IMG/VR virus record: IMGVR_UViG_2872158770_000003
Reading direction: 5' to 3' (one strand)
Source of the DNA: a virus
Taxonomy: Duplodnaviria > Heunggongvirae > Uroviricota > Caudoviricetes
DNA length: 37,298 bases
The translations under genes and the position numbers were made by a program. The notes below the pieces were generated by a model. That model ran no database searches, was not told the origin of the DNA, and saw only the letters and a program-made list of their open reading frames with translations. Below are positions 1,738 to 21,416 of the stretch, in pieces (position 1 is the stretch's first letter; each line of letters begins with the position of its first letter).

Positions 1738-1801
1738 TGAGGTAGCCTGAGTTTAACGGACACTCCTTCCTGAAATAGAATGGCATCAGAAGGAGCTAAT
1801 A

Positions 1802-2104
1802 ATGAGCAGAAAAACCCAACGTTACTCTAAAGAGTTCAAAGCCGAAGCTGTCAGAACGGTTCCTGAAAATCAACTTTCGATCAGTGAAGGCGCTTCCCGA
1901 TTATCTCTTCCTGAAGGCACTTTAGGACAATGGGTTACCGCCGCCAGAAAAGGGCTCGGTACTCCTGGTTCCCGCACGGTGGCTGAACTGGAATCTGAAA
2001 TTCTGCAACTGCGTAAGGCGTTAAATGAAGCTCGCCTTGAGCGAGATATATTAAAAAAAGCAACAGCGTATTTTGCACAGGAGTCGCTGAAAAATACGCG
2101 TTAA
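1802..2104 (+). CDS. IS600 OrfA (HTH transposase N-terminal protein, 100 aa)
   Basis: Translation MSRKTQRYSKEFKAEAVRTV...LQLRKALNEARLERDILKKATAYF is typical IS3-family OrfA with leucine zipper. Confidence 0.9.
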   Translation: MSRKTQRYSKEFKAEAVRTVPENQLSISEGASRLSLPEGTLGQWVTAARKGLGTPGSRTVAELESEILQLRKALNEARLERDILKKATAYFAQESLKNTR

Positions 2105-2139
2105 TCGAACAATGGCGACAACAATTTCCCATTGAAGCG

Positions 2140-2958
2140 ATGTGTCAGGTATTTGGTGTATCCAGGAGCGGTTATTACAACTGGGTACAGCATGAACCCT
2201 CAGACAGAAAACAAAGTGATGAGCGGCTAAAACTGGAGATTAAGGTGGCACATATCCGCACTCGCGAAACATATGGAACCCGGCGGCTCCAGACGGAGCT
2301 GGCAGAGAATGGCATCATCGTTGGTCGTGACCGACTGGCACGTCTTCGTAAGGAGCTAAGGCTACACTGTAAGCAGAAACGCAAGTTCAGAGCGACTACG
2401 AACTCGAACCACAATCTGCCAGTTGCGCCAAATCTGCTGAACCAGACGTTCGCTCCTACAGCACCAAATCAGGTCTGGGTGGCGGACCTGACGTATGTTG
2501 CCACACAGGAGGGATGGTTGTACCTCGCTGGCATCAAAGATGTTTATACGTGCGAAATTGTCGGCTACGCCATGGGAGAGCGCATGACAAAAGAGCTGAC
2601 AGGTAAAGCCCTGTTTATGGCGCTCAGGAGCCAGCGCCCACCTGCCGGGCTAATCCACCACTCTGATCGAGGTTCACAGTACTGCGCATACGATTACCGG
2701 GTCATACAGGAGCAGTCTGGTCTGAAAACATCAATGTCGCGTAAAGGTAACTGTTACGACAACGCTCCGATGGAAAGCTTCTGGGGAACGCTGAAAAATG
2801 AGAGCCTGAGCCACTATCGTTTTAATAACCGGGATGAAGCCATCTCAGTAATACGGGAATACATTGAGATTTTCTACAATCGTCAGCGTCGTCACTCTCG
2901 TCTGGGGAATATCTCCCCGGCAGCCTTCAGGGAAAAATATCATCAGATGGCTGCTTAA
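2140..2958 (+). CDS. IS600 OrfB (DDE transposase catalytic domain, 272 aa)
   Basis: Translation contains IS3-family integrase-core motifs (WVADLTYV..., HSDRGSQY..., NAPMESFWGTLK); normally expressed as OrfAB fusion. Confidence 0.9.
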   Translation: MCQVFGVSRSGYYNWVQHEPSDRKQSDERLKLEIKVAHIRTRETYGTRRLQTELAENGIIVGRDRLARLRKELRLHCKQKRKFRATTNSNHNLPVAPNLLNQTFAPTAPNQVWVADLTYVATQEGWLYLAGIKDVYTCEIVGYAMGERMTKELTGKALFMALRSQRPPAGLIHHSDRGSQYCAYDYRVIQEQSGLKTSMSRKGNCYDNAPMESFWGTLKNESLSHYRFNNRDEAISVIREYIEIFYNRQRRHSRLGNISPAAFREKYHQMAA

Positions 2959-3001
2959 AAAAAGAACAAATGGTAGTGTCCGCTATTGCCAGTACACCTC
3001 A

Positions 3002-7356: not shown

Positions 7357-7475
7357 TGACTGAAATCGCGTCAGTACAGTAAACGCGCTGGTGGCGGTGA
7401 ATACCTGTCTTTCAGCTTGCTGGCTTTTTCGACAAGAGTTATTGGTGTGTCACGTTAACCGGAAAAGGAAAAGAC

Positions 7476-7673: not shown

Positions 7674-7823
7674 AGGCTTTTTTATTTGTGGTAAATGGGC
7701 GGCTGGTGGGTGTTAGGGGCACCCACCAGCCATCTGCTCATGCGTTGGGTTCACAAGCAAACCTCAGGCCCACTGCTTTGCGCAAAAGCAGAATGAGCCT
7801 ATCAGAGACAGGCTTAATGATCC

Positions 7824-8882
7824 ATGCTTAATACTGTAAAAATATCCAGTTGTGAGTTAATCAACGCCGACTGCCTGGAATTTATCCGGTCGTTACCCGA
7901 AAATTCTGTTGACCTGATAGTCACGGACCCGCCGTACTTTAAAGTGAAGCCTGAGGGCTGGGATAACCAGTGGAAGGGCGACGATGATTACCTGAAGTGG
8001 CTGGACCAGTGTCTGGCGCAGTTCTGGCGGGTGCTGAAACCTGCCGGAAGTCTTTACCTGTTCTGTGGTCATCGCCTGGCATCTGATATCGAAATCATGA
8101 TGCGTGAACGCTTCAGTGTGCTGAACCATATTATCTGGGCGAAGCCGTCCGGACGCTGGAACGGATGCAACAAGGAAAGCCTGCGGGCGTATTTCCCCGC
8201 CACAGAGCGCATTCTGTTCGCGGAACATTATCAGGGGCCGTATCGTCCGAAAGATGCCGGGTATGCGGCGAAGGGCAGTGCACTGAAACAGCATGTGATG
8301 GCCCCGCTGATTTCTTACTTTCGTGATGCGCGAGCTGCCCTGGGGATAACGGCAAAACAGATTGCAGATGCCACAGGAAAGAAAAACATGGTGTCGCACT
8401 GGTTCAGTGCCGGTCAGTGGCAGTTGCCGAATGAAAGCGATTATCTGAAATTACAGGCGCTGTTTGCCCGGGTGGCAGAAGAGAAGCATCGGCGTGGTGA
8501 ACTGGAAAAGCTCCACCACCAGCTGGTGGATACGTATACCTCACTGAACCGGCAGTATGCGGAGCTGCTGAGTGAATATAAACATCTGCGGCGGTATTTT
8601 GGCGTGACGGTGCAGGTGCCGTATACCGATGTGTGGACGCATAAACCGGTGCAGTTCTATCCCGGGAAACATCCGTGCGAAAAACCGGCAGAAATGCTGC
8701 AGCAGATAATCAGCGCTAGCAGTCGTCCGGGTGACCTGATTGCAGATTTTTTCATGGGGTTGGGTTCGACAGTGAAAGCGGCACTGGCGCTCGGGCGTCG
8801 TGCAATTGGCGTTGAGCTGGAGACTGAACGTTTTGAGCAGACGGTTCGGGAAGTACAGGATTTAGTCAGCCAGAACGGATGA
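7824..8882 (+). CDS. DNA methyltransferase (N6-adenine/N4-cytosine, beta-class order) (352 aa)
   Basis: Catalytic DPPY motif near N-terminus (LIVTDPPYF) and SAM-binding FxGxGS motif near C-terminus (DFFMGLGST), i.e. motif IV before motif I. Confidence 0.8.
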   Translation: MLNTVKISSCELINADCLEFIRSLPENSVDLIVTDPPYFKVKPEGWDNQWKGDDDYLKWLDQCLAQFWRVLKPAGSLYLFCGHRLASDIEIMMRERFSVLNHIIWAKPSGRWNGCNKESLRAYFPATERILFAEHYQGPYRPKDAGYAAKGSALKQHVMAPLISYFRDARAALGITAKQIADATGKKNMVSHWFSAGQWQLPNESDYLKLQALFARVAEEKHRRGELEKLHHQLVDTYTSLNRQYAELLSEYKHLRRYFGVTVQVPYTDVWTHKPVQFYPGKHPCEKPAEMLQQIISASSRPGDLIADFFMGLGSTVKAALALGRRAIGVELETERFEQTVREVQDLVSQNG

Positions 8883-8922
8883 TATTGAAGAATTAATTAC
8901 GCGTCGTTATTATGCGGCTCCC

Positions 8923-8998
8923 GGCCCTTTAGCTCAGTGGTGAGAGCGAGCGACTCATAATCGCCAGGTCGCTGGTTCAAATCCAGCAAGGGCCACCA
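8923..8998 (+). tRNA. ileZ: tRNA-Ile2 (anticodon CAT, lysidine-type)
   Basis: Cloverleaf folded by hand: acceptor GGCCCTT/AAGGGCC, anticodon loop CTCATAA, T-loop TTCAAAT, encoded CCA; close to E. coli tRNA-Ile2 (recalled). Confidence 0.85.
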
Positions 8999-9005
8999 TC
9001 ACATA

Positions 9006-9082
9006 CCGCCATTAGCTCATCAGGAAAGAGCGCCAGCCTTCGAAGCTGGCTGCGCGGGGTTCAAGTCCCCGATGGCGGTCCA
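9006..9082 (+). tRNA. tRNA-Arg (anticodon TCG)
   Basis: Acceptor CCGCCAT/ATGGCGG, anticodon stem CCAGC/GCTGG with loop CTTCGAA, T-arm CGGGG-TTCAAGT-CCCCG, encoded CCA. Confidence 0.85.
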
Positions 9083-9095
9083 TTATCTGCATCAT

Positions 9096-9172
9096 GCGTT
9101 GTTAGCTCAGCCGGACAGAGCAATTGCCTTCTAAGCAATCGGTCACTGGTTCGAATCCAGTACAACGCGCCA
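9096..9172 (+). tRNA. tRNA-Arg (anticodon TCT, reads AGA/AGG)
   Basis: Acceptor GCGTTGT/ACAACGC, anticodon stem ATTGC/GCAAT with loop CTTCTAA, T-arm CACTGG-TTCGAAT-CCAGT, encoded CCA. Confidence 0.85.
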
Positions 9173-9186
9173 CACTTATTTTCCCT

Positions 9187-9212
9187 GGCTCGCTTTTGCG
9201 GGCCTTTTTTTT
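9187..9212 (+). terminator. rho-independent terminator after the tRNA cluster
   Basis: Stem GGCTCGC/GCGGGCC (one G-U pair), loop TTTT, followed by eight T. Confidence 0.6.
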
Positions 9213-9217
9213 AAATG

Positions 9218-9435
9218 TCTCACAATTCAGACGGTTGACAGTTGTCTGTTTTGCGGGGAGTTTGTTAAAAGAAACTGGCATGGTGAATCCCCCTGTGCGG
9301 AGGGGCAATCAGCGAGTAGGTATATGGGATAATCGCGGATTCAGGTGCTGGTACTGAATTCACCGGGAGGCACCCGGCATCATGCAATGGCACATAGCGC
9401 CACTCTCCAGCCCTCTCCGGAGGGGCTTTTCTGTG
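9218..9435 (+). repeat. module A of a diverged tandem duplication (TTGACA hexamer, conserved hairpins, terminal terminator)
   Basis: Shares collinear blocks with module B: CTCACAATTCAG, TTGACAGTTG, TTTGTTAAAA, GCATGGTGAATCCCCCTG, GCGGAGGGGC, CACCGGGAGGCACCCGGCA, CCCCTCTCCGGAGGGG + T-run. Confidence 0.6.
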
Positions 9436-9685
9436 CCGGATACATCACAGTTTCTGGAACCTTAGGTACTACAGTATCAGTCAGGGTGCTATATTTTCAG
9501 ATGTGATGAAAGCCTGTCAGCAGGCAGGGCGTATCGGAAATGACCCAGTAGAGAAAACGTTGACTCAGATACCGGTGCTGAGTTACCGGGAAACCGGCAT
9601 CACATGACCGCTATCCTTCCAGGCCCATCCGCTCCGGTGGGCCTTTTTACTGCAGAAAACAGGTTCCCCGTTAAATGCTATGTTG

Positions 9686-9919
9686 CTCACAATTCAGTAA
9701 GTTGACAGTTGCCTGTCAGACTGGGCATTTGTTAAAAAAATTTCGCATGGTGAATCCCCCTGAGCGGAGGGGCGACTGGTGACGGTATAATCTCTGATTA
9801 TCAAAACGAGAATGACGCGGGTTTAGTGGCACCGGGCTGAACTCACCGGGAGGCACCCGGCACCATGTGCATGATGATACAGATACGCGGCTTTAGCCCC
9901 TCTCCGGAGGGGTTTTCTT
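9686..9919 (+). repeat. module B of the diverged tandem duplication; contains a perfect TATAAT at 9786-9791
   Basis: Same ordered blocks as module A about 467 bp downstream; preceded by terminator hairpin GGCCCA-TCCGCTCCGG-TGGGCC + TTTTT (9622-9649). Confidence 0.6.
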
Positions 9920-10147
9920 GTGGGCAAAAAAAGCCCGCGCTGGGAGACGCGGGCGGCAAGGAATAAACAATAAAACGTGAAGTAATATTTCAGCTGGCGA
10001 ATAATACCCCATAGTAATCACTCTGCGCAACTGCGCGGTCTTTTTCGAATTGCGGGCTGTCGTCTCTCTTCTGCCATTGTCCTGTAACTTCCGGACTTCA
10101 GCCCGCTCCTTATTTTACTCACAATATTATCCCGGCCGGGAGGATTC

Positions 10148-12001
10148 ATGGCATTTAAACACTATGACGTGGTCAGGGCGGCATCGCCGTCAGACCTTGC
10201 GAAACGACTGACACAAAAACTGAAGGAGGGCTGGCAGCCGTTTGGTAGTCCGGTGGCCATAACCCCTTATACCCTGATGCAGGCGATTGCAGCAGAAGGT
10301 GATGTGGTCGTCAGTGGTGCAACTGAGCCGGAGTGGTACTACGTCATCGTACTGGCCGGGCAATCCAATGCCATGGCTTACGGTGAAGGTCTTCCGCTTC
10401 CGGATTCATACGATGCGCCCCATCCGCGCATTAAGCAACTGGCCCGTCGTAACACAGTGACTCCCGGTGGTGAAGTATGCGTATTTAACGACATCATTCC
10501 TGCTGACCATTGTCTGCATGATGTTCAGGATATGAGTACGATTAACCATCCCCGGGCTGACCTGAGCAAAGGGCAGTACGGCTGTGTCGGACAGGGCTTA
10601 CATATTGCCAAAAAACTGCTTCCGTATATCCCTAATAATGCGGGGATCCTGCTGGTACCATGCTGTTGTGGTGGTTCGGCATTCACCCAGGGCACGGAGG
10701 GGACATTCAGCGAGTCCACGGGGGCCAGTCAGGATTCGGCTCGCTGGGGAGTGGGTAAGCCGTTATATCAGGATCTGCTTTTCCGCACGAAGGCAGCATT
10801 GCAGAAAAACCCGAAAAACGTTTTGCTGGCGATATGCTGGATGCAGGGGGAATTCGATATGACGAATGCCAGTTACGCCCAGCAGCCAGCAGCATTTCTT
10901 GCAATGGTACAGCAGTTCCGTGCTGACCTTGCCGGGCTGGCGGCGCAGTGTCACGGTGGAAGTCCGGCATCAGTCCCCTGGATTTGTGGCGACACGACAT
11001 ACGCGTGGAAACAAGAACACGGTACGCAATATGAAGTGGTATATGGTGCATATAAAGGTAAAGAATCCCAGCAGATTTATTTTGTTCCCTTTATGACCGA
11101 TGGTAGCGGAGTTAATACACCGACAAACAACCCGTCAGAAGATCCTGATATTGCCGGGTCTGGTTATTACGGTTCGGCATCCCGAACGAACAAAAACTGG
11201 GTATCATCAAATCGCCCGACGCATTTCAGCTCATGGGCGCGTCGTGGCATTATTCCCGATCGTATGGCAACTGCTATTCTGAACGTAGCCGGTCGCACCT
11301 TAGCCTTCATTAGTGGTAAGGCACCGGAAATCAAACCCTCGCCCGGCGGCGACACGCCATCGGGGCCGTCTGAAGATGCATCCATACGCACAATCTCCCT
11401 GTTGCCGACAGCCGGAGACGCTGCTGCGCAGGGCTGGAGCATTAAGAATGGCGGAGTTCAGTTGTCAGATGGTGTATTTAAGATCACCAAGCAGAGCAAT
11501 AAAGCCTGGTCCCTGACGCGCCCGGTGGATGACGCAGTCTCCCTGCTGACACGGGGTGGCAGACTGAGCTGTAAGTTTCGACTGTCAGGCGCACTGACCA
11601 ACAACCAGTTCGGTCTGGGAATTTATCTGTATACCGATGTAGCGTTACCTGACGTCGTGGCGATGACCGGGACTGGTAACCCGTTCCTGATGTCGTTCTT
11701 CACCCAGACCACAGACGGCAAACTGAATCTGATGCATCACAAGAAAGCAGGAAACACAAAGTTGGGCGAGTTCGGGAATTACAGTAACGACTGGCTGACG
11801 CTGGAGCTGGTGTTCACCGCCGGCAGTGCCACGGTTACTCCGAAACTGAATGGAGTGGCTGGCCCGGCATTCCAGGTCATAAAAGACAGTCTGACACTGG
11901 GGCTGAATGCGCTGACGCTGACGGATATTACCAAAAATGCAGCGTATGGCGTTGAGATAGAAAGTCTGGTGCTGGAGATAAATGCACCGGCATCATCATA
12001 A
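10148..12001 (+). CDS. nanS-p: prophage NanS-p-type sialate O-acetylesterase (617 aa)
   Basis: RBS GGGAGGA upstream; SGNH-hydrolase-like block VIVLAGQSNAMAYGEG; size and position (after phage tRNAs, before the holin) match Stx-phage nanS-p (recalled). Confidence 0.7.
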   Translation: MAFKHYDVVRAASPSDLAKRLTQKLKEGWQPFGSPVAITPYTLMQAIAAEGDVVVSGATEPEWYYVIVLAGQSNAMAYGEGLPLPDSYDAPHPRIKQLARRNTVTPGGEVCVFNDIIPADHCLHDVQDMSTINHPRADLSKGQYGCVGQGLHIAKKLLPYIPNNAGILLVPCCCGGSAFTQGTEGTFSESTGASQDSARWGVGKPLYQDLLFRTKAALQKNPKNVLLAICWMQGEFDMTNASYAQQPAAFLAMVQQFRADLAGLAAQCHGGSPASVPWICGDTTYAWKQEHGTQYEVVYGAYKGKESQQIYFVPFMTDGSGVNTPTNNPSEDPDIAGSGYYGSASRTNKNWVSSNRPTHFSSWARRGIIPDRMATAILNVAGRTLAFISGKAPEIKPSPGGDTPSGPSEDASIRTISLLPTAGDAAAQGWSIKNGGVQLSDGVFKITKQSNKAWSLTRPVDDAVSLLTRGGRLSCKFRLSGALTNNQFGLGIYLYTDVALPDVVAMTGTGNPFLMSFFTQTTDGKLNLMHHKKAGNTKLGEFGNYSNDWLTLELVFTAGSATVTPKLNGVAGPAFQVIKDSLTLGLNALTLTDITKNAAYGVEIESLVLEINAPASS

Positions 12002-12085
12002 AAAGTGAGCCAGCCAAATGGAAGGTATCGTTAAACTCACCGGTAGTGTCAGTGGGTCGTCTGAGATGCCTGCATGAGTTATCAG

Positions 12086-12117
12086 AGCCATCAGTACTTA
12101 ACTGGTGGCTTTTTTTA
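12086..12117 (+). terminator. rho-independent terminator downstream of nanS-p
   Basis: 9-bp stem AGCCATCAG/CTGGTGGCT (one G-U), loop TACTTAA, then TTTTTTT. Confidence 0.6.
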
Positions 12118-12151
12118 TTGTTGTCAGCTTCCGGATAACGGGAGACGGGGT

Positions 12152-12367
12152 ATGTACCAGATGGAAAAAATCACAACAGGTGTGTCATACACCACGTCAG
12201 CGGTGGGAACGGGCTACTGGTTCCTGCAGTTGCTGGACAGGGTTTCCCCGTCTCAGTGGGCGGCAATAGGCGTGCTGGGGAGTCTGCTGTTTGGGCTGCT
12301 GACATATCTGACTAACCTGTATTTCAAAATCAGAGAGGACCGTCGTAAGGCTGCACGGGGAGAGTAA
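12152..12367 (+). CDS. S: class II holin (phage-21 S-type pinholin), dual-start motif MYQMEK
   Basis: Translation ...[51 protein letters not shown] matches phage 21 pinholin (recalled); two in-frame ATGs at 12152 and 12161. Confidence 0.75.
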
Positions 12368-12371
12368 TTCA

Positions 12372-12686
12372 ATGACTCAAAACTATGAACTGATTGTGAA
12401 AGGGATCCGCAATTTTGAGAATAAAGTTACGGTAACTTTAGCGTTACGGGACAAAAAACGCTTTGACGGTGAAATTTTTGACCTGGACATCTCGCTGGAC
12501 CGTGTTGAAGGTGCCGCGCTGGAGTTTTATGAGGCAGCAGCCAGAAGGAGCATCAGACAGGTCTTCTTGGATGTTGCTGCCGGGTTATGTGAAGGGGACG
12601 AGCTGTTGCCAGAAACGCGCCCCTGTTCAGAGGCGCGGTATACCATAAAAATTAACAGTTCTGATAACTCGATTACGGGTTGTTAG
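12372..12686 (+). CDS. hypothetical protein (104 aa) between holin and endolysin
   Basis: ORF with GGGGAGAG RBS region 5 nt after holin stop; no family recognised. Confidence 0.4.
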   Translation: MTQNYELIVKGIRNFENKVTVTLALRDKKRFDGEIFDLDISLDRVEGAALEFYEAAARRSIRQVFLDVAAGLCEGDELLPETRPCSEARYTIKINSSDNSITGC

Positions 12687-12741
12687 CTTTTTGCAGTTGG
12701 CTTTCCAGTATCTTTCATTGGTAGCATCCTGATAAATATCC

Positions 12742-12794
12742 ATGAGCGCAAAAATCAAATACGGCCTGTCAGCTGCTGTTCTGGCGCTGATTGC
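12742..12794 (+). pseudogene. R: SAR-endolysin (R) 5' fragment, truncated after about 17 codons
   Basis: N-terminus MSAKIKYGLSAAVLALIA matches the signal-anchor-release start of Stx-phage/phage-21 endolysins (recalled); frame then runs into unrelated repeat DNA. Confidence 0.55.
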
Positions 12795-12912
12795 AAAATG
12801 GCATCTGAATCGATCGCAGTTTGGCATTCGAATCGATCATGATTTGGCATCCATCTCCGATCACAGTTTGGCATCACAATCGATCACGATTTGGCATACT
12901 TCCGATCATTGA
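12795..12912. repeat. five tandem direct repeats of about 23 bp (consensus TTTGGCATCnnAATCGATCAnGA)
   Basis: Units AAATGGCATCTGAATCGATCGCAG / TTTGGCATTCGAATCGATCATGA / TTTGGCATCCATCTCCGATCACAG / TTTGGCATCACAATCGATCACGA / TTTGGCATACTTCCGATCATTGA. Confidence 0.7.
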
Positions 12913-13119
12913 TTGGAATTCGCCAGTCACTCCGGGAATTAACTCTTTTCACCACAGTCTCCATTGCCGTGTTTAAACCAGTGGAGACGTCAATGTCCAA
13001 AAAGAGAAAATCCAGGAGCACTATGGAAACTTGTTTTAAGATCCTTCAGCTCAAGTTCGATAAGAAGCTGACTAACTGAGGTGTACTGGCAATAGCGGAC
13101 ACTACCATTTGTTCTTTTT

Positions 13120-13938
13120 TTAAGCAGCCATCTGATGATATTTTTCCCTGAAGGCTGCCGGGGAGATATTCCCCAGACGAGAGTGACGACGCTGACGATT
13201 GTAGAAAATCTCAATGTATTCCCGTATTACTGAGATGGCTTCATCCCGGTTATTAAAACGATAGTGGCTCAGGCTCTCATTTTTCAGCGTTCCCCAGAAG
13301 CTTTCCATCGGAGCGTTGTCGTAACAGTTACCTTTACGCGACATTGATGTTTTCAGACCAGACTGCTCCTGTATGACCCGGTAATCGTATGCGCAGTACT
13401 GTGAACCTCGATCAGAGTGGTGGATTAGCCCGGCAGGTGGGCGCTGGCTCCTGAGCGCCATAAACAGGGCTTTACCTGTCAGCTCTTTTGTCATGCGCTC
13501 TCCCATGGCGTAGCCGACAATTTCGCACGTATAAACATCTTTGATGCCAGCGAGGTACAACCATCCCTCCTGTGTGGCAACATACGTCAGGTCCGCCACC
13601 CAGACCTGATTTGGTGCTGTAGGAGCGAACGTCTGGTTCAGCAGATTTGGCGCAACTGGCAGATTGTGGTTCGAGTTCGTAGTCGCTCTGAACTTGCGTT
13701 TCTGCTTACAGCGTAGCCTTAGCTCCTTACGAAGACGTGCCAGTCGGTCACGACCAACGATGATGCCATTCTCTGCCAGCTCCGTCTGGAGCCGCCGGGT
13801 TCCATATGTTTCGCGAGTGCGGATATGTGCCACCTTAATCTCCAGTTTTAGCCGCTCATCACTTTGTTTTCTGTCTGAGGGTTCATGCTGTACCCAGTTG
13901 TAATAACCGCTCCTGGATACACCAAATACCTGACACAT
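13120..13938 (-). CDS. IS600 OrfB (272 aa)
   Basis: Same protein as 2140-2958 apart from one substitution (R/H). Confidence 0.9.
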   Translation of the reverse strand: MCQVFGVSRSGYYNWVQHEPSDRKQSDERLKLEIKVAHIRTRETYGTRRLQTELAENGIIVGRDRLARLRKELRLRCKQKRKFRATTNSNHNLPVAPNLLNQTFAPTAPNQVWVADLTYVATQEGWLYLAGIKDVYTCEIVGYAMGERMTKELTGKALFMALRSQRPPAGLIHHSDRGSQYCAYDYRVIQEQSGLKTSMSRKGNCYDNAPMESFWGTLKNESLSHYRFNNRDEAISVIREYIEIFYNRQRRHSRLGNISPAAFREKYHQMAA

Positions 13939-13973
13939 CGCTTCAATGGGAAATTGTTGTCGCCATTGTTCGA

Positions 13974-14276
13974 TTAACGCGTATTTTTCAGCGACTCCTG
14001 TGCAAAATACGCTGTTGCTTTTTTTAATATATCTCGCTCAAGGCGAGCTTCATTTAACGCCTTACGCAGTTGCAGAATTTCAGATTCCAGTTCAGCCACC
14101 GTGCGGGAACCAGGAGTACCGAGCCCTTTTCTGGCGGCGGTAACCCATTGTCCTAAAGTGCCTTCAGGAAGAGATAATCGGGAAGCGCCTTCACTGATCG
14201 AAAGTTGATTTTCAGGAACCGTTCTGACAGCTTCGGCTTTGAACTCTTTAGAGTAACGTTGGGTTTTTCTGCTCAT
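13974..14276 (-). CDS. IS600 OrfA (100 aa)
   Basis: Identical to 1802-2104 product. Confidence 0.9.
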   Translation of the reverse strand: MSRKTQRYSKEFKAEAVRTVPENQLSISEGASRLSLPEGTLGQWVTAARKGLGTPGSRTVAELESEILQLRKALNEARLERDILKKATAYFAQESLKNTR

Positions 14277-14332
14277 TATTAGCTCCTTCTGATGCCATTC
14301 TATTTCAGGAAGGAGTGTCCGTTAAACTCAGG

Positions 14333-14890
14333 CTACCTCAGCCGGAAGAACAGACTGGCTTCCTCTCTGTTCATCGGCAGATAGCCTATTTCATCCAGGA
14401 TCAACACCCGGGCATAACTCAGTTGCTGTAGCTGACGCTCCAGCCGGTTTTCCTGTTTCGCTTTCATCAGTGTCGCGATCAGTCTGTCCAGTGGCATAAA
14501 CAGTACCCGATGTCCCGCATCCACCGCTTTCACGCCAAGAGCTATGGCCAGATGAGTTTTTCCGACACCAGGAGGGCCCAGCAGGATCACGTTTTCGCTG
14601 CGCTCCACGAACGCCAGACCAGCCAGTTCCCGGACAACCTTACGGTCGATGCCCGGCTGGAAGGTAAAGTCGAACTGCTCCAGCGTTTTGACCCACGGCA
14701 GACGAGCCTGCTTCAGCCTGGACTCCATACCGCGCTGATGCCTGCCGTTCCATTCCTGCTGTAGCGCCATGCACAGGAACTCCCGGTAGTTCAGCTCTTT
14801 TTTAGCTGCCTGTTCCAGCAGGCTTTCAACGTGATAACTCAGATGCTCCATTTTCAGGCGACTCAGCAGGACTTCCAGTTCATGCATCAC
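14333..14890 (-). pseudogene. istB: IS21-family helper ATPase IstB, C-terminally truncated by IS600 (185 aa remain)
   Basis: Walker A LLGPPGVGKTHLA and Walker B VLILDEIGY present; frame runs into the IS600 terminus where a stop is supplied by IS600 sequence. Confidence 0.75.
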
Positions 14891-16160
14891 AACAGCTCCT
14901 CATAGGCACTCAGTGGTCGATGTTCCACCTGACTGACCTGCTGCCAGAGCGGGGCGTGATGCTCCGGCACTGTCTGCCAGCCAGACGATGCTGAACAGAG
15001 GCGATGTGAGGCCACCAGTTTCTCATTACTGTAGATCCGCAACTCGTCATCCAGCGATATTCGTATCGATACCGGCTGACCACACAGCGCTTCGGGAACG
15101 CTGTAACGATTACCACCAACCTCGATATAGCTGTCCCAGGACACATGGCGGATATCGAAGTAACTGGTATCGAAGTCTGTATCCGGTAACGGCTGCAGAT
15201 GTTCCTGCTCCAGCGCGAAGCGCTGTTCCGGCGTTTCTTTGAACTGGCGAAGCTCCCGTTTGTCAGCCACATCGGCTATCCATTGCTCCAGTTGTTGATT
15301 GACATGAGTGAAGCTGTCGAACCTGCGGTACCGGACGAAGAAGTTCTCCTTGAGGTATTTCACCATCCGCTCAACCTTACCTTTTGTTCTGGCCCTGCGT
15401 GGACGGCATGCCCGTGGCAGGAAGTTATAGTGGTCAGCCAGCAACAGGAATCCGGAGTTGAACACGACTTTCCCGTTGTTATTCTTCAGCACCGCAGCCT
15501 TCTGGTTATCAACCAGCACCGTTTTCACACAACCACCGAAGTAGCGGAAGGCGCGAACCAGTGATTCGTAGGTATGCTCAGCATCCTGTTTTGGTGCGGC
15601 GAAGACATGGAAGCTGCGGGAGAACCCCAGCGTATTAACCGCAAAGTTAACTTTGCACCGTTGCCCGGCAACCTCCACCTCAACTTCGCCCCAGTCATGC
15701 TGGAGCTGGTATCCAGGCTGAGTTTCGAAGCGAACTGTTCTTTTTGACGGACGCATTTTACGTTTGGGCTGGATGTAGTAACGCAGCATGGAACGTCCGC
15801 CCGTATAACCCATTGCCTTAATCTCCGCGAAGATAACCTCGCTATTCCAGACATTCTCTGCCAGGCGCATGTCGATGTAATCCATAAACGGTTTCAGCTT
15901 AACCATTTTGTGGCGGGTCTTTCTGGCTGGCGGTTCAGGGTATTTGAGGTAGCGTCTGACCGTCCGTTCAGAGCAACCAATCTGAGTCGCAATATCGACG
16001 ATGTACGCGCCCTGCTGGCGCATTTGCTTTATCATGTAAAAGTCCTCTCTGCTCAGCATGTTGATGTCCTTTCTGGTGTGAGAACCTTAAGGAAACAACA
16101 TGTTGGGTGGAGCGGACAATCCAAATGGCGAATTACCGTCTTATATCACTGGCGCTGACA
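14341..16160 (-). mobile_element. IS21-family element, partial: one terminus at 16160, other end removed by IS600
   Basis: istA then istB on minus strand; high-coordinate terminus reads ...CTGACA, placed where homology to FII begins at 16161; istB cut at the IS600 boundary. Confidence 0.6.
14887..16059 (-). CDS. istA: IS21-family transposase IstA (390 aa)
   Basis: N-terminal HTH and DDE integrase-core-like region; 4-nt overlap with istB as in IS21-family operons. Confidence 0.8.
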   Translation of the reverse strand: MLSREDFYMIKQMRQQGAYIVDIATQIGCSERTVRRYLKYPEPPARKTRHKMVKLKPFMDYIDMRLAENVWNSEVIFAEIKAMGYTGGRSMLRYYIQPKRKMRPSKRTVRFETQPGYQLQHDWGEVEVEVAGQRCKVNFAVNTLGFSRSFHVFAAPKQDAEHTYESLVRAFRYFGGCVKTVLVDNQKAAVLKNNNGKVVFNSGFLLLADHYNFLPRACRPRRARTKGKVERMVKYLKENFFVRYRRFDSFTHVNQQLEQWIADVADKRELRQFKETPEQRFALEQEHLQPLPDTDFDTSYFDIRHVSWDSYIEVGGNRYSVPEALCGQPVSIRISLDDELRIYSNEKLVASHRLCSASSGWQTVPEHHAPLWQQVSQVEHRPLSAYEELL

Positions 16161-16235
16161 TCTCCGGATGACGGGGGCAGCTGTTATCTCTGGCTCAACC
16201 GTGGGCAACCACCCGCAGTTAACCGGCGACGATAA
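16161..16235 (+). pseudogene. FII: 3' remnant of head-tail joining gene FII
   Basis: Frame translates ...SPDDGGSCYLWLNRGQPPAVNRRR*, matching the lambda gpFII C-terminus (recalled); upstream part replaced by the IS21-family element. Confidence 0.55.
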
Positions 16236-16249
16236 ACGCAGGGTGAATT

Positions 16250-16825
16250 ATGGCGATAAAAGGGCTTGATCAGGCGATTGACAATCTGAACCGGGTTCGT
16301 AAAAACGCCATTCCGGCTGCTTCTGCAATGACCATTAACCGCGTGGCCACAACGGCGATTAATCAGTCTTCGTCACAGGTTGCCCGGGAAACCAGGGTGA
16401 GACGGAAACTGGTAAAGGAACGGTCCAGACTGAAACGGGCGACGGTCAGAAATCCGAATGCCAGAATTATCGTTAACCGCGGTGATCTCCCTGTGATTAA
16501 GCTGGGGATCAGAATGCTGGGGCGTCGTCCGAACAGCATACTCAAAGCCGGTCAGCATCGTTATCAGCGGGCATTTATCCAGCGATTAAATAATGGGCGC
16601 TGGCATGTTATGCAACGTCTTCCCCAGGCCAGATATGAGGAGGGCAATGACGACAAGGGAAGGAAAAAGCGTAATCGCCTTCCCATTCAGGTGGTGAAAA
16701 TCCCGATGGCGGCCCCACTGAAACAGGCATTTGATGAGAATGTTGACCGTATCCGGCGTGAACGCCTGCCTAAAGAACTGGCATACGCGCTGAAACAACA
16801 ACTGAGGATTGCGATAAAACGATGA
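16250..16825 (+). CDS. Z: tail completion protein Z (191 aa)
   Basis: Lambda gpZ-like sequence and length; stop overlaps U start. Confidence 0.85.
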   Translation: MAIKGLDQAIDNLNRVRKNAIPAASAMTINRVATTAINQSSSQVARETRVRRKLVKERSRLKRATVRNPNARIIVNRGDLPVIKLGIRMLGRRPNSILKAGQHRYQRAFIQRLNNGRWHVMQRLPQARYEEGNDDKGRKKRNRLPIQVVKIPMAAPLKQAFDENVDRIRRERLPKELAYALKQQLRIAIKR

Positions 16826-17217
16826 AACACACTGACATTCGTGCCGCAGTGCTGGATGCACTCGAGCAGCATGAACACGGGGCGACGCTGTTTGATGGTC
16901 GCCCCGTTGTTTTTGACGAAGAGGATTTTCCTGCGATCGCGGTTTATCTGACGGATGCAGAGTATACCGGTGAAGAGCTGGATGCAGATACCTGGCGGGC
17001 CACACTGCATATTGAGGTGTTTTTACCGGCACAGGTACCTGATTCGGAGCTCGATCAGTGGATGGAAAGCCGGATTTATCCGGCGATGACTGCGATCCCT
17101 GCACTGGCAGGACTGATTACCACGATGGTTACGCAGGGCTATGAGTATCGTCGTGATGACGATATGGCGTTATGGAGCTCTGCGGATCTGACTTATTCCA
17201 TTACATACGAGATGTGA
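16822..17217 (+). CDS. U: tail terminator protein U (131 aa)
   Basis: [54 protein letters not shown]... matches lambda gpU. Confidence 0.9.
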
Positions 17218-17224
17218 GGACGAT

Positions 17225-17977
17225 ATGGCAACACCAAATCCCCTGGAGCCGGTAAAAGGTGCCGGTACCACTCTGTGGGTTTACAACGGCAAGGCTGATG
17301 CTTATGCAAACCCGTTGTCAGACGATGACTGGCAGCGACTGGCTAAGGTGAAGGATCTGACGCCGGGCGAGATGACGGCTGAATCCTATGATGATAACTA
17401 CCTGGATGATGAAGACGCGGACTGGAGCGCGACCGGGCAGGGGCAGAAATCTGCAGGTGATACCAGTTTTACGCTGGCCTGGAAACCGGGAGAGGAAGGC
17501 CAGAAAGGGCTTATAGGCTGGTTTGAAAGCGGCGATGTCCGGGCCTATAAAATCCGTTTTCCGAATGGCACGGTGGATGTGTTTCGTGGCTGGGTCAGCA
17601 GTATCGGTAAGGCCGTGACGGCGAAAGAAGTGATCACCCGCACGGTGAAAGTCACTAACGTGGGTAAACCTTCTGTAGCGGAAGAACGCAGCAAAATTAC
17701 GCCGGTCAGTGCGATTAAGGTGACGCCGACATCCGGTACGGTGGCAAAAGGGAAAACAACCACCCTGACGGTTTCTTTTGAGCCGGAAAGTGCAACCGAC
17801 AAGACGTTCAGAGCGGTTTCCGCCGATCCGTCGAAAGCCACCATTAGTGTGAAAGATATGACAATTACGGTAAACGGCGTGGCGACAGGTAAGGTGCAGA
17901 TCCCTGTGGTGAGCGGAAATGGTCAGTTCGCCGCAGTGGCTGAAGTCACCGTTACTGAAGCGGGCGCTGCAGGGTAA
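17225..17977 (+). CDS. V: major tail tube protein V (250 aa)
   Basis: [14 protein letters not shown]...[41 protein letters not shown] matches lambda gpV, including C-terminal Ig-like domain. Confidence 0.9.
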
Positions 17978-17990
17978 ACGGAGGTAATAC

Positions 17991-18422
17991 ATGTTTCTGA
18001 AAACAGAACAATTTGAATATAACGGTGTGTCTGTCACGCTTTCCGAATTGTCTGCGCTGCAGCGTATCGAGCATCTTGCCCTCCTGAAACGGCGTGCAGA
18101 ACAGGCAGAATCCAGCGGCAACCTGCAGGTAAGCGTGGAAGATCTCGTCAGAACCGGCGCGTTTCTGGTGGCGATGTCCCTGTGGCATAACCATCCACAG
18201 AAAACGCAGTCACCGTCAATGAATGAGGCCGTGATGAAGATAGAGCAGGAAGTGCTCACCACCTGGCCTGCCGATGCCATTGCCCGGGCGGAAGACGTGG
18301 TGTTGTGCCTGTCCGGGATGATCGAAGCTGTTCGTCCGGATACTGATATTACTGAAGTGGCGAAAAATAACACGCTGACTGATGATGATTTTTCTGCGGG
18401 AAAGTCTTCGACGGCGAGCTGA
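17991..18422 (+). CDS. G: tail assembly chaperone G (143 aa)
   Basis: MFLKTEQFEYNGVSVTLSELSALQRIEHLALLKRRAEQAES... matches lambda gpG. Confidence 0.9.
   Translation: MFLKTEQFEYNGVSVTLSELSALQRIEHLALLKRRAEQAESSGNLQVSVEDLVRTGAFLVAMSLWHNHPQKTQSPSMNEAVMKIEQEVLTTWPADAIARAEDVVLCLSGMIEAVRPDTDITEVAKNNTLTDDDFSAGKSSTAS
18398..18404 (+). other. programmed -1 ribosomal frameshift heptamer GGGAAAG (makes G-T fusion)
   Basis: Slippery sequence near the 3' end of G; the T frame is -1 relative to G. Confidence 0.8.
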
Positions 18423-18448
18423 ACTTTGCCCTCAGACTGGCGCGTGAG

Positions 18449-18862
18449 ATGGGGAGACCCGACTGGCGCGCCATGCTTGCCGGGATGACATCCACCGAAT
18501 ATGCCGACTGGCGCCGTTTTTACCGCACGCATTATTTTCAGGATACCCAGCTGGATATGCATTTTTCCGGGCTGACGTACGCTGTACTCAGCCTGTTTTT
18601 TTGCGATCCGGATATGCATCCCTCTGATTTCAGTCTGCTTGTCCCCCGGCATGAGGAAGAGCAGGTGGAGAGGCCGGATGAGGACAAAATGCTGATGCAG
18701 AAAGCGGCAGGACTTGCCGGAGGCGTCCGGTTCGGTGGGGACGGAGGGCGCGATATTTTATCGTCTGCGGATGTGGCGGATGTCATGGTGGATGATGCCG
18801 CATTAATGATGGCTTCAGCGGGGATTCCGGGAGGTGTGAGATATGTCCCAGCCGGTTGGTGA
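18449..18862 (+). CDS. T: tail assembly protein T (translated as G-T fusion via -1 frameshift)
   Basis: ORF in -1 frame relative to G, between G and the tape-measure gene. Confidence 0.8.
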   Translation: MGRPDWRAMLAGMTSTEYADWRRFYRTHYFQDTQLDMHFSGLTYAVLSLFFCDPDMHPSDFSLLVPRHEEEQVERPDEDKMLMQKAAGLAGGVRFGGDGGRDILSSADVADVMVDDAALMMASAGIPGGVRYVPAGW

Positions 18863-21416
18863 TCTTGTTATTGACCTGAGTCTGGATGCTGTCCGTTTCG
18901 ATGAGCAGATGAGCCGGGTAAGGCGTCATTTTTCAGGTCTGGATACCGACGCCAGAAAAACCGCCAGTGCTGTTGAACAGGGCCTGAGCCGCCAGGCGCT
19001 GGCTGCACAAAAAGCCGGGATTTCCGTCGGGCAGTATAAAGCGGCCATGCGAACCCTGCCCGCACAGTTTACGGATATCGCCACGCAGCTTGCCGGTGGT
19101 CAGAATCCCTGGCTGATCCTGCTGCAACAGGGCGGTCAGGTGAAGGACTCCTTCGGCGGGATGATCCCCATGTTCAGGGGGCTTGCCGATGCGATCACCC
19201 TGCCGATGGTCGGGGTCACCTCGCTGGCGGTGGCGACAGGTGCACTGGTGTACGCCTGGTACCAGGGAGATTCCACGCTTTCAGCGTTTAATAAAACCCT
19301 GGTTCTTTCCGGTAATCAGTCCGGACTGACTGCCGATCGTATGCTGACTCTCTCAAGAGCCGGGCAGGCAGCAGGGCTGACGTTTAACCAGGCGAGAGAG
19401 TCACTGGCAGCCCTGGTGAATGCCGGTGTGCGTGGTGGTGAACAGTTTGATGCCATCAACCAGAGTGTCGCGCGTTTTGCGTCTGCATCCGGTGTGGAGG
19501 TGGATAAAGTCGCTGAAGCCTTCGGGAAGCTGACCACTGACCCGACGTCGGGACTGATGGCGATGGCGCGCCAGTTCCGTAACGTGACGGCAGAGCAGAT
19601 TGCGTATGTTGCACAGCTGCAGCGTTCCGGAGACGAGGCCGGGGCATTGCAGGCGGCGAACGATATCGCCACGAAAGGCTTTGATGAGCAGACCCGTCGC
19701 CTGAAAGAAAACATGGGAACACTGGAGACCTGGGCGGATAAAACAGGGAAGGCATTCAAATCGATGTGGGATGCCATTCTGGATATCGGTCGTCCGGAAT
19801 CCTCAGCGGATATGCTCGCCAGTGCGCAGAAGGCATTTGATGAGGCGGATAAAAAATGGCAGTGGTACCAGAGTCGGAGCCAGCGCCGCGGTAAAACCTC
19901 CTCTTTCCGGGCCAACCTTCAGGGCGCATGGGATGACCGGGAAAATGCCCGTCTGGGTCTGGCAGCGGCAACGCTGCAGTCGGATATGGAAAAAGCCGGT
20001 GAACTGGCGGCAAGGGACAGGGCTGAGCGTGAGTCGTCACAGCTGAAGTATACCGGAGAGGCGCAGAAGGCGTATGAGCGCCTGCTGACGCCACTGGAGA
20101 AATATACCGCCCGGCAGGAAGAGCTGAATAAGGCCCTGAAAGACGGGAAAATCCTGCAGGCGGATTACAACACGCTGATGGCGTCGGCAAAAAAGGATTA
20201 TGAGTCGACGCAGAAAAAGCCGTCCGGTGTGAAGGTGTCTGCCGGTGAGCGCCAGGAAGACCAGGCGCATGCAGCCCTGCTGGCGCTTGAAACTGAGCTC
20301 AGGACGCTGGAGAAGCACAGCGGTGCGAATGAAAAAATCAGCCAGCAGCGCCGTGATTTATGGAAAGCGGAAAATCAGTATGTGGTCCTGAAAGAGGCCG
20401 CCACGAAACGGCAGTTATCTGAGCAGGAAAAATCCCTGCTGGCCCATGAGAAAGAAACGCTGGAGTACAAACGCCAGCTGGCTGAGCTGGGCGACAAGAT
20501 TGAACACCAGAAACGGCTGAATGAGCTGGCACAGCAGGCGGCGCGGTTTGAACAGCAGCAGAGCGCGAAGCAGGCGGCAATCAGCGCAAAAGCCCGCGGA
20601 CTCACCGACCGTCAGGCGCAGCGGGAGTCGGAAGAGCAGCGCCTTCGTGAGGTGTACGGTGATAATCCGGCTGCGCTGGCGAAGGCCACATCTGCACTGA
20701 AGAACACCTGGTCTGCGGAGGAGCAGCTTCGTGGAAGCTGGATGGCCGGGATGAAGTCCGGCTGGGGCGAGTGGGCGGAAAGTGCGACGGACAGTTTTTC
20801 GCAGGTTAAAAACGCGGCCACGCAGACCTTTGACGGTATTGCACAGAATATGGCAGCGATGCTGATCGGCAGCGAACAGAACTGGCGTGGTTTCACCCGT
20901 TCTGTGCTGTCCATGCTGACAGAGATTTTTCTGAAGCAGGCGATGGTGGGGATAGTCGGGAGTATCGGCAGCGCCATTGGCGGTGCTTTCGGTGGTGGTG
21001 CGTCTGCCTCCACGGGGACGGCCATTCAGGCTGCGGCGGCGAACTTCCATTTCGCGACCGGGGGATTTACGGGGACGGGGGGTAAATATGAACCTGCGGG
21101 GATTGTTCATCGCGGGGAGTTTGTCTTCACGAAGGAGGCGACCAGCCGGATTGGTGTCGGCAATCTGTACCGCCTGATGCGGGGCTATGCGGAAGGTGGT
21201 TATGTCGGCGGTGCCGGAAGTCCGGCGCAGATGCGGCGGGCGGAAGGCATTAATTTTAATCAGAACAATCACGTGGTGATTCAGAACGACGGCCCCAACG
21301 GGCGGGCAGGGCCGCAGCTGATGAAAGCGGTGTATGAGATGGCCCGCAAGGGGGCACAGGATGAACTCCGGCTGCAGTTGCGTGATGGCGGTATGTTATC
21401 AGGGAGCGGTGGATGA
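18843..21416 (+). CDS. H: tail tape measure protein H (857 aa)
   Basis: Lambda gpH-like length, coiled-coil-rich centre and Gly-rich C-terminus; gene order G/T-H-M. Confidence 0.9.
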   Translation: MSQPVGDLVIDLSLDAVRFDEQMSRVRRHFSGLDTDARKTASAVEQGLSRQALAAQKAGISVGQYKAAMRTLPAQFTDIATQLAGGQNPWLILLQQGGQVKDSFGGMIPMFRGLADAITLPMVGVTSLAVATGALVYAWYQGDSTLSAFNKTLVLSGNQSGLTADRMLTLSRAGQAAGLTFNQARESLAALVNAGVRGGEQFDAINQSVARFASASGVEVDKVAEAFGKLTTDPTSGLMAMARQFRNVTAEQIAYVAQLQRSGDEAGALQAANDIATKGFDEQTRRLKENMGTLETWADKTGKAFKSMWDAILDIGRPESSADMLASAQKAFDEADKKWQWYQSRSQRRGKTSSFRANLQGAWDDRENARLGLAAATLQSDMEKAGELAARDRAERESSQLKYTGEAQKAYERLLTPLEKYTARQEELNKALKDGKILQADYNTLMASAKKDYESTQKKPSGVKVSAGERQEDQAHAALLALETELRTLEKHSGANEKISQQRRDLWKAENQYVVLKEAATKRQLSEQEKSLLAHEKETLEYKRQLAELGDKIEHQKRLNELAQQAARFEQQQSAKQAAISAKARGLTDRQAQRESEEQRLREVYGDNPAALAKATSALKNTWSAEEQLRGSWMAGMKSGWGEWAESATDSFSQVKNAATQTFDGIAQNMAAMLIGSEQNWRGFTRSVLSMLTEIFLKQAMVGIVGSIGSAIGGAFGGGASASTGTAIQAAAANFHFATGGFTGTGGKYEPAGIVHRGEFVFTKEATSRIGVGNLYRLMRGYAEGGYVGGAGSPAQMRRAEGINFNQNNHVVIQNDGPNGRAGPQLMKAVYEMARKGAQDELRLQLRDGGMLSGSGG

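What the first reader, a model, noticed from the sequence alone, without database searches (positions are those of the whole stretch)
12742..16235. Lysis, packaging and head modules replaced by an IS600 / IS21-family complex
Between the truncated endolysin and tail gene Z there is no Rz, terminase, portal or capsid gene. Only the final 25 codons of FII survive (…SPDDGGSCYLWLNRGQPPAVNRRR*) directly after the IS21-family terminus at 16160. The IS21-family element has an intact istA but an istB truncated by IS600, and IS600 lacks target duplications, so IS insertion followed by deletion probably removed about 10 kb and left the prophage unable to form particles.
Basis: partly seen in the sequence, partly recalled or inferred. 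Interest (0 to 1): 0.45.

Follow-up and report, generated by a model that had tools for sequence, protein, structure and literature searches.

The report
IS-mediated head-gene deletion in prophage
This is a decayed lambda-like prophage at the ompW site of Shigella sonnei in which three insertion sequences (an ISSso4 stub, a whole IS600, a truncated IS21) replace about 10.5 kb of lysis, packaging and head genes, which is ordinary IS-driven genome decay in Shigella.

Summary
The window is Shigella sonnei chromosome, 100% identical to CP026802.1 over 20.5 kb.

Between the lysis and tail modules lie, in order:
- the first 50 nt of the endolysin gene (12742-12791);
- a complete IS600 (13077-14340, minus strand, flanks AAC/GCC, no target duplication);
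- IS21 nt 1-1820 of 2131 (14341-16160, minus strand; istA intact, istB cut at codon 184);
- the last 24 codons plus stop of FII (16161-16235);
- then Z.

Intact relatives in E. coli 042 and cM8a carry 10.53-10.54 kb here: the rest of R, Rz, terS, terL, W, portal, protease, D, E, FI and most of FII. None of these occurs anywhere else in the window.

Both ends of the remnant sit at the ompW attachment site, which favours in-situ deletion over a join of two prophages.

Most other S. sonnei genomes read keep the same R'-ISSso4'-IS600 junction. They have lost a further ~16.5 kb (IS21' and the tail genes) from the same IS600 end.

It is a routine, well-understood kind of event and of low interest.

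The parts
12152..12367 (+). Class II holin gene (context; intact).
   Evidence: 100% identical over 71 aa to the E. coli 042 holin. Pfam Phage_holin_2_1 is recorded for the gene in the S. sonnei loci.
12372..12686 (+). YdfR/DUF1327 family gene (context).
   Evidence: tblastn to the 042 YdfR gene. PF07041 is recorded.
12742..12791 (+). 5' remnant of the endolysin (R-type lysozyme) gene, 16 codons plus 2 nt. The next 3 nt (TGC) are the ISSso4 terminus but happen to match the lysozyme as well.
   Evidence: 100% identical to 042 L001 up to position 4020. Lysozyme residues 1-18 only. Gene callers annotate a 56-aa chimeric ORF at 12742-12912.
12792..13076 (+). Left-end stub of ISSso4 (IS21 family): terminus TGCAAAATGG..., repeated TTTGGCAT motifs, leader, and istA codons 1-28 from the ATG at 12993. 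It is 285 bp of a 2638-bp element.
   Evidence: 100% match to PGAP-labelled ISSso4 (H64/L016) and 97.6% to L006. The element ends and 5-7-bp target duplications were defined on four full copies.
13077..14340 (-). Complete IS600 (IS3 family), 1264 bp. orfA is at 13974-14276 and orfB at 13120-13938. There is no target-site duplication (AAC | GCC).
   Evidence: 99.9% identical to the copy at 1738-3001 and 99.7% to annotated IS600 on a pINV plasmid. NF033516, HTH_Tnp_1 and rve hits.
14341..16160 (-). IS21, nt 1-1820 of 2131 counted from its left end at 16160. istA (14887-16059) is intact at 390 aa. istB starts at 14887 and is truncated after 184 of 265 codons, with its stop at 14333-14335 inside IS600. 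The right 311 bp and right terminus are missing.
   Evidence: 100% identical to L003 and L005 copies annotated 'IS21-like element IS21 family'. NF033546 scored 284 bits and NF038214 202.6 bits over profile positions 1-176 of 232.
16161..16235 (+). 3' remnant of head-tail joining gene FII: last 24 codons plus stop.
   Evidence: Aligns to 042 L001 14560-14634 and cM8a L002 17478 onward. The 042 FII is 117 aa.
16250..16825 (+). Tail gene Z, the first intact gene of the surviving tail module (Z, U, V, G, T, H, M, L, K, I, then J and stf with stops).
   Evidence: 98.4% over 191 aa to 042 Z. Minor_tail_Z Pfam hit.
1738..3001 (+). Second IS600 copy, inverted relative to the first, also without a target duplication (TTT | TCC). 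It marks a separate rearrangement at the left arm of the same prophage remnant.

Best explanation
A lambda-like prophage integrated at ompW in the Shigella sonnei ancestor was hit by two IS21-family elements: ISSso4 in codon 17 of the endolysin gene and IS21 in codon 93 of FII. Their right ends faced each other.

An IS600-associated deletion then removed everything between a point 285 bp into ISSso4 and a point 1820 bp into IS21, about 13.2 kb in all. That includes about 10.5 kb of phage DNA encoding the rest of R, Rz, terminase, portal, protease, decoration, capsid, FI and most of FII. One intact IS600 was left at the novel joint.

The deletion arose in one of two ways, which leave the same footprint:
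- homologous recombination between two direct IS600 copies, one in ISSso4 istA and one in IS21 istB; or
- a one-ended, IS600-adjacent deletion.

The remnant cannot lyse cells through its own endolysin, package DNA or build heads.

Shown: the anatomy, the exact breakpoints, the missing gene set, the chromosomal context and the recurrence across S. sonnei genomes. Inferred: the order of insertions and the recombination mechanism.
For: - Breakpoints coincide to the base with IS termini defined on independent full copies that carry target duplications.
- Intact collinear prophages in E. coli 042 and cM8a have 10,531-10,542 bp between the two breakpoints, carrying the full lambda-order lysis, packaging and head set.
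- None of those proteins is encoded elsewhere in the window.
- IS600 lacks its 3-bp duplication here. A simple IS600 insertion in other S. sonnei genomes has TCC|TCC.
- Seven of the ten S. sonnei loci shown for the R'-ISSso4' fusion ORF (six with the plain arrangement, L024 with one extra IS600) keep the identical R'-ISSso4'-IS600 junction but have a different right flank. That flank is the reverse complement of window 32528 onward, which means a further ~16.5 kb loss from the same IS600 end. The index lists the fusion ORF in 196 blocks of the collection.
- Direct IS600 copies that could serve as recombination partners do occur in this region (L019 at window 9614-9616, L024 at about 32121-32128).
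- The left chromosomal flank is ompW-yciC-yciB-yciA. The right end of the remnant is the partial ompW' attR seen in cM8a. Both arms therefore sit at one attachment site.
- The window-type junction is present in several independent assemblies: 53G HE616528.1, CP026802.1, UGZB01000001.1 and JANXIY010000004.1.
- Hawkey et al. 2020 (PMC7373316) list IS21, ISSso4 and IS600 among the 12 IS of S. sonnei 53G, and describe IS-mediated deletion as a major route of Shigella genome decay.
Against: - Each IS21-family element keeps only one end, so their own target duplications cannot be checked. An original simple insertion of each is inferred, not shown.
- No intermediate was found: neither R::ISSso4 with the rest of R, nor FII::IS21 with the upstream head genes. 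5,426 complete E. coli genomes lack both junctions.
- The rest of the S. sonnei chromosome could not be scanned for reciprocal junctions.
- S. sonnei carries other lambda-like prophage regions (PMC5447701).
Confidence: 0.82

Rival explanations
1. Relocation rather than loss. The lysis-head segment was moved elsewhere in the chromosome by IS600-mediated inversion or translocation and still exists there. Alternatively, the two arms come from two different prophages joined through IS600 recombination.
For: Shigella chromosomes are heavily rearranged through IS copies (PMC7373316). The left arm of this same remnant does contain an inverted ~1-kb segment next to the other IS600. S. sonnei has other lambda-like prophage regions.
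Against: - No head or packaging gene is in the 37-kb window or in the 10 kb beyond its left end.
- An ISSso4'-IS600-IS21' joint cannot be produced by inverting the intervening segment. Inversion would leave two IS600 copies and join ISSso4' to the IS21 right end.
- The flank test for exchange between the two IS600 copies in the window is negative (TTT/TCC versus AAC/GCC).
- Both arms sit at the single ompW attachment site.
Confidence: 0.08
2. The deletion predates S. sonnei. The element arrived, or was inherited from an E. coli ancestor, already lacking heads.
For: The R'-ISSso4'-IS600 junction appears fixed in every S. sonnei genome read, so the event is at least as old as the sampled diversity.
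Against: None of 5,426 complete E. coli genomes carries the R/ISSso4 junction. The >=80% hits there are ISSso4 copies in unrelated contexts. None carries the IS21/FII junction either. A phage without terminase and capsid genes cannot be packaged and transferred on its own.
Confidence: 0.07
3. Assembly artefact: repeated IS copies were collapsed and the intervening DNA dropped.
For: One draft contig (L012, AKNE01000010.1) joins the IS21 left end to a Mg-chelatase (comM/yifB-like) gene instead of FII. That looks like a repeat-collapse chimera or a further rearrangement.
Against: Identical junctions occur in several independent chromosome-length (>4.9 Mb) records, with 99.97-100% identity across 10-20 kb.
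Confidence: 0.01

Closest known systems
Cryptic or defective lambdoid prophages of E. coli K-12 (DLP12, Rac, Qin) and of EHEC O157. This comparison rests on established knowledge and was not re-tested here.
   Same: A lambda-order prophage that keeps some modules (Q, tRNAs, esterase, holin, tail genes) but has lost packaging and head genes and carries IS elements. In the STEC276 Qin-like prophage an IS21 copy sits exactly at the lysozyme start codon.
   Different: Here the loss is marked by a three-IS scar with base-precise IS termini. The decay is still in progress within the species, which shows two junction states.
IS-mediated deletion and genome degradation in Shigella (Hawkey et al. 2020, PMC7373316).
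   Same: IS600 expansion, pseudogenes interrupted by IS, and deletions between or next to IS copies. IS21, ISSso4 and IS600 are all listed for S. sonnei 53G.
   Different: That paper treats the phenomenon genome-wide. This particular locus and its stepwise junctions were not found described in the papers searched.
Defective Stx prophage of Shigella dysenteriae type 1 (PMC7819885).
   Same: A defective prophage in a Shigella chromosome (abstract); that it is lambdoid and bounded by IS elements is from my own knowledge and was not read here.
   Different: The S. sonnei remnant carries no stx. tRNAs are followed directly by the SASA-family esterase gene.
Intact ompW-site prophages of E. coli 042, cM8a and UGDK01000002.1 (L001, L002, L029, L039).
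   Same: 97-100% nucleotide identity on both sides of the scar, with the same gene order and the same attachment site.
   Different: They retain R, Rz, terS, terL, W, portal, C, D, E, FI, FII and (L039) the integrase end of the early region. They have no IS at these positions.

Membership tests
IS600 (IS3 family) | An element of about 1264 bp with terminal inverted repeats, near-identical to reference-labelled IS600. | tested here: met
   13077-14340 is 1264 bp. It is 99.7% identical to PGAP-annotated IS600 on pINV (L005) and 99.9% to the copy at 1738-3001.
IS600 (IS3 family) | orfA (HTH) and orfB (DDE/rve) arranged for a programmed -1 frameshift. | tested here: met
   The 100-aa ORF hits HTH_Tnp_1 and the 272-aa ORF hits rve/rve_3/rve_2. 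NF033516 scored 334 bits. The fused 385-aa product is called in L009.
IS600 (IS3 family) | A 3-bp target-site duplication. This is the signature of simple insertion, not of membership. | tested here: not met
   Flanks are AAC and GCC. A control copy in other S. sonnei genomes has TCC|TCC. The absence indicates a later rearrangement.
IS21 (IS21 family) | istA transposase of 390 aa followed by an overlapping istB helper ATPase of 265 aa. | tested here: met
   istA is 390 aa, NF033546 at 284 bits. istB is present but truncated to 184 aa; NF038214 scored 202.6 bits (cut-off 200) over profile positions 1-176 of 232. The DNA is 100% identical to annotated copies.
IS21 (IS21 family) | Both termini (TGT...ACA) and a 4-bp target duplication; length about 2131 bp. 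| tested here: not met
   Only the left terminus (16160) and 1820 of 2131 bp are present. The right 311 bp is missing, so this copy is a non-autonomous fragment. Full copies L003, L004 and L005 show 4-bp duplications.
ISSso4 (IS21 family) | Sequence identity to ISSso4, including its left terminus and the start of istA. | tested here: met
   12791-13076 is 100% identical to the PGAP-labelled ISSso4 copy L016. The terminus TGCAAAATGG is shared by four full copies with 5-7-bp duplications.
ISSso4 (IS21 family) | A complete element of 2638 bp with istA of 511 aa and istB of 251 aa. | tested here: not met
   Only 285 bp are present, including 28 codons of istA. The fragment is cut by IS600 at 13076/13077.
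Functional lambda-like (lambdoid) prophage | Terminase, portal, protease/scaffold, major capsid and head-completion genes. | tested here: not met
   No tblastn hit in the window for terS, terL, W, portal, C, D, E or FI. FII is reduced to 24 codons.
Functional lambda-like (lambdoid) prophage | A complete lysis cassette: holin, endolysin and spanin. | tested here: not met
   The holin is intact. The endolysin is reduced to 16-18 codons. No Rz-type lysis protein is present.
Functional lambda-like (lambdoid) prophage | An intact tail module and the integrase/early region. | tested here: not met
   Z to I are intact. J has in-frame stops at codons 68, 595 and 600, and stf at codon 876. No int-to-replication region lies between the complete ompW and the remnant in S. 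sonnei loci, whereas the intact relative L039 has integrase next to ompW.

The most novel reading that the evidence does not exclude
The scar may not be just neutral decay. The stepwise IS600-adjacent losses (head genes in all S. sonnei read; IS21' plus the tail genes in most) could be lineage-defining. They might reflect selection to keep only the Q, tRNA, SASA-family (nanS-p-like) esterase and holin segment while shedding particle genes. That would make this a domesticated prophage fragment with a built-in, IS600-driven deletion hot spot usable as a phylogenetic marker.
Probability: 0.1. Interest if true: 0.3.

Novelty: already known. Interest (0 to 1): 0.1.

Why it matters
It matters little beyond annotation. 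The region documents, base by base, how a Shigella sonnei prophage lost its lysis, packaging and head genes through IS activity. It also shows that the loss continued in most of the other genomes read.

Practical uses are modest:
- correct annotation of the 56-aa chimeric 'hypothetical protein' and of the truncated IstB as junction artefacts;
- a possible PCR or in-silico marker separating the 53G/CP026802-type genomes from the further-deleted genomes;
- a caution that prophage-prediction tools may score such remnants as phage.

Tried and rejected
- I first assumed 12795-13076 was the missing right end of the same IS21 element. Full IS21 copies do not match it. It is the left end of ISSso4.
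- I tested whether the two inverted IS600 copies in the window had exchanged flanks through inversion of 3002-13076. The flank triplets are not reverse complements of each other, and gene orientation is collinear with intact relatives, so this was rejected.
- The top hits on EIEC pINV plasmids, which appeared to carry the same IS600-IS21 composite, turned out to be separate IS copies joined by the hit-merging rule. The IS600 inside IS21 on S. sonnei pINV (H80) lies at a different position.
- Hits covering >=80% of the R/ISSso4 junction query (H50-H53) were ISSso4 copies in unrelated contexts whose flanks resemble the lysozyme target by chance or by target preference. They are not the same junction.
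- A look-up of the ash-like protein to read DNA beyond the right end of the window returned only short contigs and was uninformative.
- The draft contig L012, with a different IS21 flank, is bounded by IS1 and a Mg-chelatase gene. I treated it as a probable repeat-collapse and not as an ancestral state.
- I did not run the large protein-homology, structure or RNA tools. Nothing in the region is of unknown identity.
Full report
**Source of the window.** A look-up of the truncated IstB protein encoded at the IS600/IS21 junction returned chromosomes HE616528.1, CP026802.1, UGZB01000001.1 and others. The window is 100% identical to CP026802.1 over 4333-24887 and 99.98% identical to HE616528.1. CP026802.1 is cited as Shigella sonnei (PMC11331407). 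HE616528.1 is S. sonnei 53G, lineage II (PMC5447701).

**Anatomy of 12742-16235.**

- Reading the sequence and aligning it to annotated copies gives this order:
  - 12742-12791: the first 50 nt of an R-type lysozyme gene.
  - 12792-13076: the left terminus, leader and first 28 istA codons of ISSso4, on the plus strand.
  - 13077-14340: a complete 1264-bp IS600, on the minus strand.
  - 14341-16160: IS21 nt 1-1820, on the minus strand.
  - 16161-16235: the last 24 codons and stop of FII.
  - 16250 onward: Z.
- The IS21 terminus is fixed by three full copies of 2130-2131 bp with 4-bp duplications TATA, ATGA and CGTT.
- The ISSso4 terminus TGCAAAATGG is fixed by four full copies of 2638-2639 bp with 5-7-bp duplications.
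- istA of IS21 is intact at 390 aa.
- istB stops after 184 of 265 codons, with its stop codon inside the IS600 end.
- IS600 has intact orfA and orfB but non-matching flanks, AAC and GCC.
- An extra IS600 found in other S. sonnei genomes at window 9614-9616 has a clean TCC duplication, so the missing duplication at 13077-14340 is informative.
There are two different IS21-family elements, each keeping only its outward-facing left end.

**What is missing.**

- E. coli 042 (L001) and cM8a (L002) carry collinear prophages with 97-100% identity on both sides of the scar.
- Between the positions matching window 12791/12794 and 16161 they hold 10,539-10,542 bp (042) and 10,531 bp (cM8a).
- In 042 that interval carries the rest of the lysozyme, an Rz-type lysis gene, DUF1398, YlcI, terS, terL, W, portal, S49 protease, decoration protein, major capsid protein, FI and FII codons 1-93; cM8a has the same packaging and head genes but small hypothetical ORFs in place of DUF1398.
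- tblastn of these proteins against the whole window finds none of them elsewhere.
- Counting the lost parts of ISSso4 (2353 bp) and IS21 (311 bp), the event removed about 13.2 kb.

**Deletion in place or relocation?**

It fails within the window.
- In S. sonnei loci, ompW, yciC, yciB and yciA lie to the left of the window start.
- The right end of the remnant (35371-36905) matches cM8a up to the partial ompW' at attR, next to yciE-yciF-trpA.
- An intact relative, L039, has ompW-int at the left.
- Both arms therefore sit at one attachment site. This argues against a join of two prophages.
- Geometry points the same way. Inverting the segment between two inverted IS600 copies would leave two IS600 copies and would place ISSso4' next to the IS21 right end. 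The observed ISSso4'-IS600-IS21' joint needs loss of the interval.
- The whole S. sonnei chromosome could not be scanned, so a reintegrated excised circle is not formally excluded. S. sonnei does have other lambda-like prophage regions (PMC5447701).

**Mechanism.**

- The 56-aa chimeric ORF spanning R' and the ISSso4 terminus is listed in 196 blocks of the collection, 75 of them with contigs over 1 Mb. The truncated IstB is on only about 10 contigs.
- In L019, L020, L021, L023, L025 and L027 the R'-ISSso4'-IS600 junction is identical. To the right of IS600 comes the reverse complement of window 32528-30208, then 33133 onward. L024 has the same arrangement with one extra IS600 at about 32121-32128.
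- Window 30233-33132 is an invertible tail-fibre segment bounded by 25-bp inverted sites. Allowing for its flip, this equals a further ~16.5 kb deletion. It removes IS21', Z through J, lom, most of stf and about 0.6 kb of the segment.
- The same IS600 end (...CCTCA at 14340) thus has two different right neighbours within one species, while its left neighbour never changes.
- That is the footprint either of IS600-adjacent deletion or of recombination with a transient second direct IS600 copy.
- Such direct copies do occur here: at 9614-9616 in L019 and at about 32121-32128 in L024.
- By analogy, the first deletion (R to FII) is attributed to the same process.
- The two sub-mechanisms leave identical products and cannot be separated with present data.

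**Other defects.**

- J has in-frame stops at codons 68, 595 and 600, and stf at codon 876.
- No int-to-replication early region lies between the complete ompW and the remnant in S. sonnei loci, although the intact relative L039 has integrase next to ompW.
- A ~1-kb DUF977'-DUF4014 segment at 1-1737 is inverted relative to the intact prophage L039. It abuts the second IS600, which also has no duplication, and is split by IS1.
- The prophage is therefore a multiply damaged remnant.

**Distribution.** No complete E. coli genome (5,426 searched) has the IS21/FII junction or the R/ISSso4 junction. The apparent >=80% hits are ISSso4 copies in unrelated contexts. As far as these collections show, the scar is specific to S. 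sonnei.

**Comparison with what is known.** Hawkey et al. 2020 list IS21, ISSso4 and IS600 among the 12 IS of S. sonnei 53G. They describe IS-mediated interruption and deletion as a main route of Shigella genome degradation (PMC7373316). Defective lambdoid prophages are familiar from E. coli K-12, and a defective Stx prophage is reported for S. dysenteriae type 1 (PMC7819885 abstract). This locus is one more example of that kind.

**Verdict.** The kind of event is already known and its interest is low.

Noticed in passing
window 14341-33132, compared with L019, L020, L021, L023, L024, L025 and L027: Seven of the ten S. sonnei loci shown have lost a further ~16.5 kb from the same IS600 end: IS21', Z to J, lom, most of stf and part of the invertible segment. 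The window type (53G, CP026802.1, UGZB01, JANXIY) is the less-deleted state and appears to be the rarer one.
   Followed up: partly
window 9614-9616 (L019 609-1872): The further-deleted genomes, and draft contig L012, carry an extra IS600 between the tRNAs and the esterase gene with a clean TCC duplication. It is in direct orientation with IS600 at 13077-14340, so the esterase-holin-R' block is now flanked by direct repeats.
   Followed up: partly
window 1-3001: A second IS600 (1738-3001) has no target duplication (TTT/TCC). The ~1-kb DUF977'-DUF4014 segment to its left, split by IS1 at 508-1275, is inverted relative to intact prophage L039 (9260-10219). No integrase or early region lies next to the complete ompW in S. 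sonnei loci, whereas L039 has integrase there. This is a separate IS-associated inversion plus deletion.
   Followed up: partly
window 24116-27550 and 28369-31146: Tail-tip gene J has in-frame stop codons at codons 68, 595 and 600. Tail-fibre gene stf has a premature stop at codon 876. The other tail genes (Z, U, V and M to I) match intact relatives over their full length (G, T and H are uninterrupted ORFs of the expected size).
   Followed up: yes
window 30208-33390: An invertible tail-fibre segment (30233-33132) has ~25-bp inverted crossover sites at 30208-32 and 33133-57, two opposed tail-fibre-assembly genes, and a truncated 60-aa resolvase/Pin-like invertase gene at about 33208-33390. The segment is in the opposite orientation in other S. 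sonnei genomes.
   Followed up: partly
window 12760-12795, compared with L014 about 2990-3026 and L015 about 3480-3517: Independent ISSso4-type insertions in unrelated contexts share flank features with the lysozyme target: GAT immediately 5' of the terminus, and in L015 also a CTGTCNGCTGC-like motif. This may reflect a target-site preference or may be chance.
   Followed up: no
L004 4499-6629 (E. coli STEC276, Qin-like prophage): An independent full IS21 copy sits exactly at the start codon of the lysozyme gene rrrQ, with an ATGA duplication. This is another IS21-family hit in a lambdoid lysis cassette.
   Followed up: no
window 8923-8998: ARAGORN calls the first phage tRNA as Met (anticodon CAT). 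RefSeq annotates the equivalent gene in relatives as tRNA-Ile, probably the lysidine-modified CAT type. No stx genes follow the tRNAs, and the SASA-family esterase gene comes next.
   Followed up: no
L012 1-700 (AKNE01000010.1): This draft S. sonnei contig joins the IS21 left end to a Mg-chelatase (comM/yifB-like) gene fragment and IS1 instead of FII. It is probably a collapsed-repeat chimera or a recombination between IS21 copies.
   Followed up: partly
window 508-1275, 34603-35370, 36904-37298: There are three IS1 copies. The last one interrupts the region just after the partial ompW' at the right prophage boundary.
   Followed up: no
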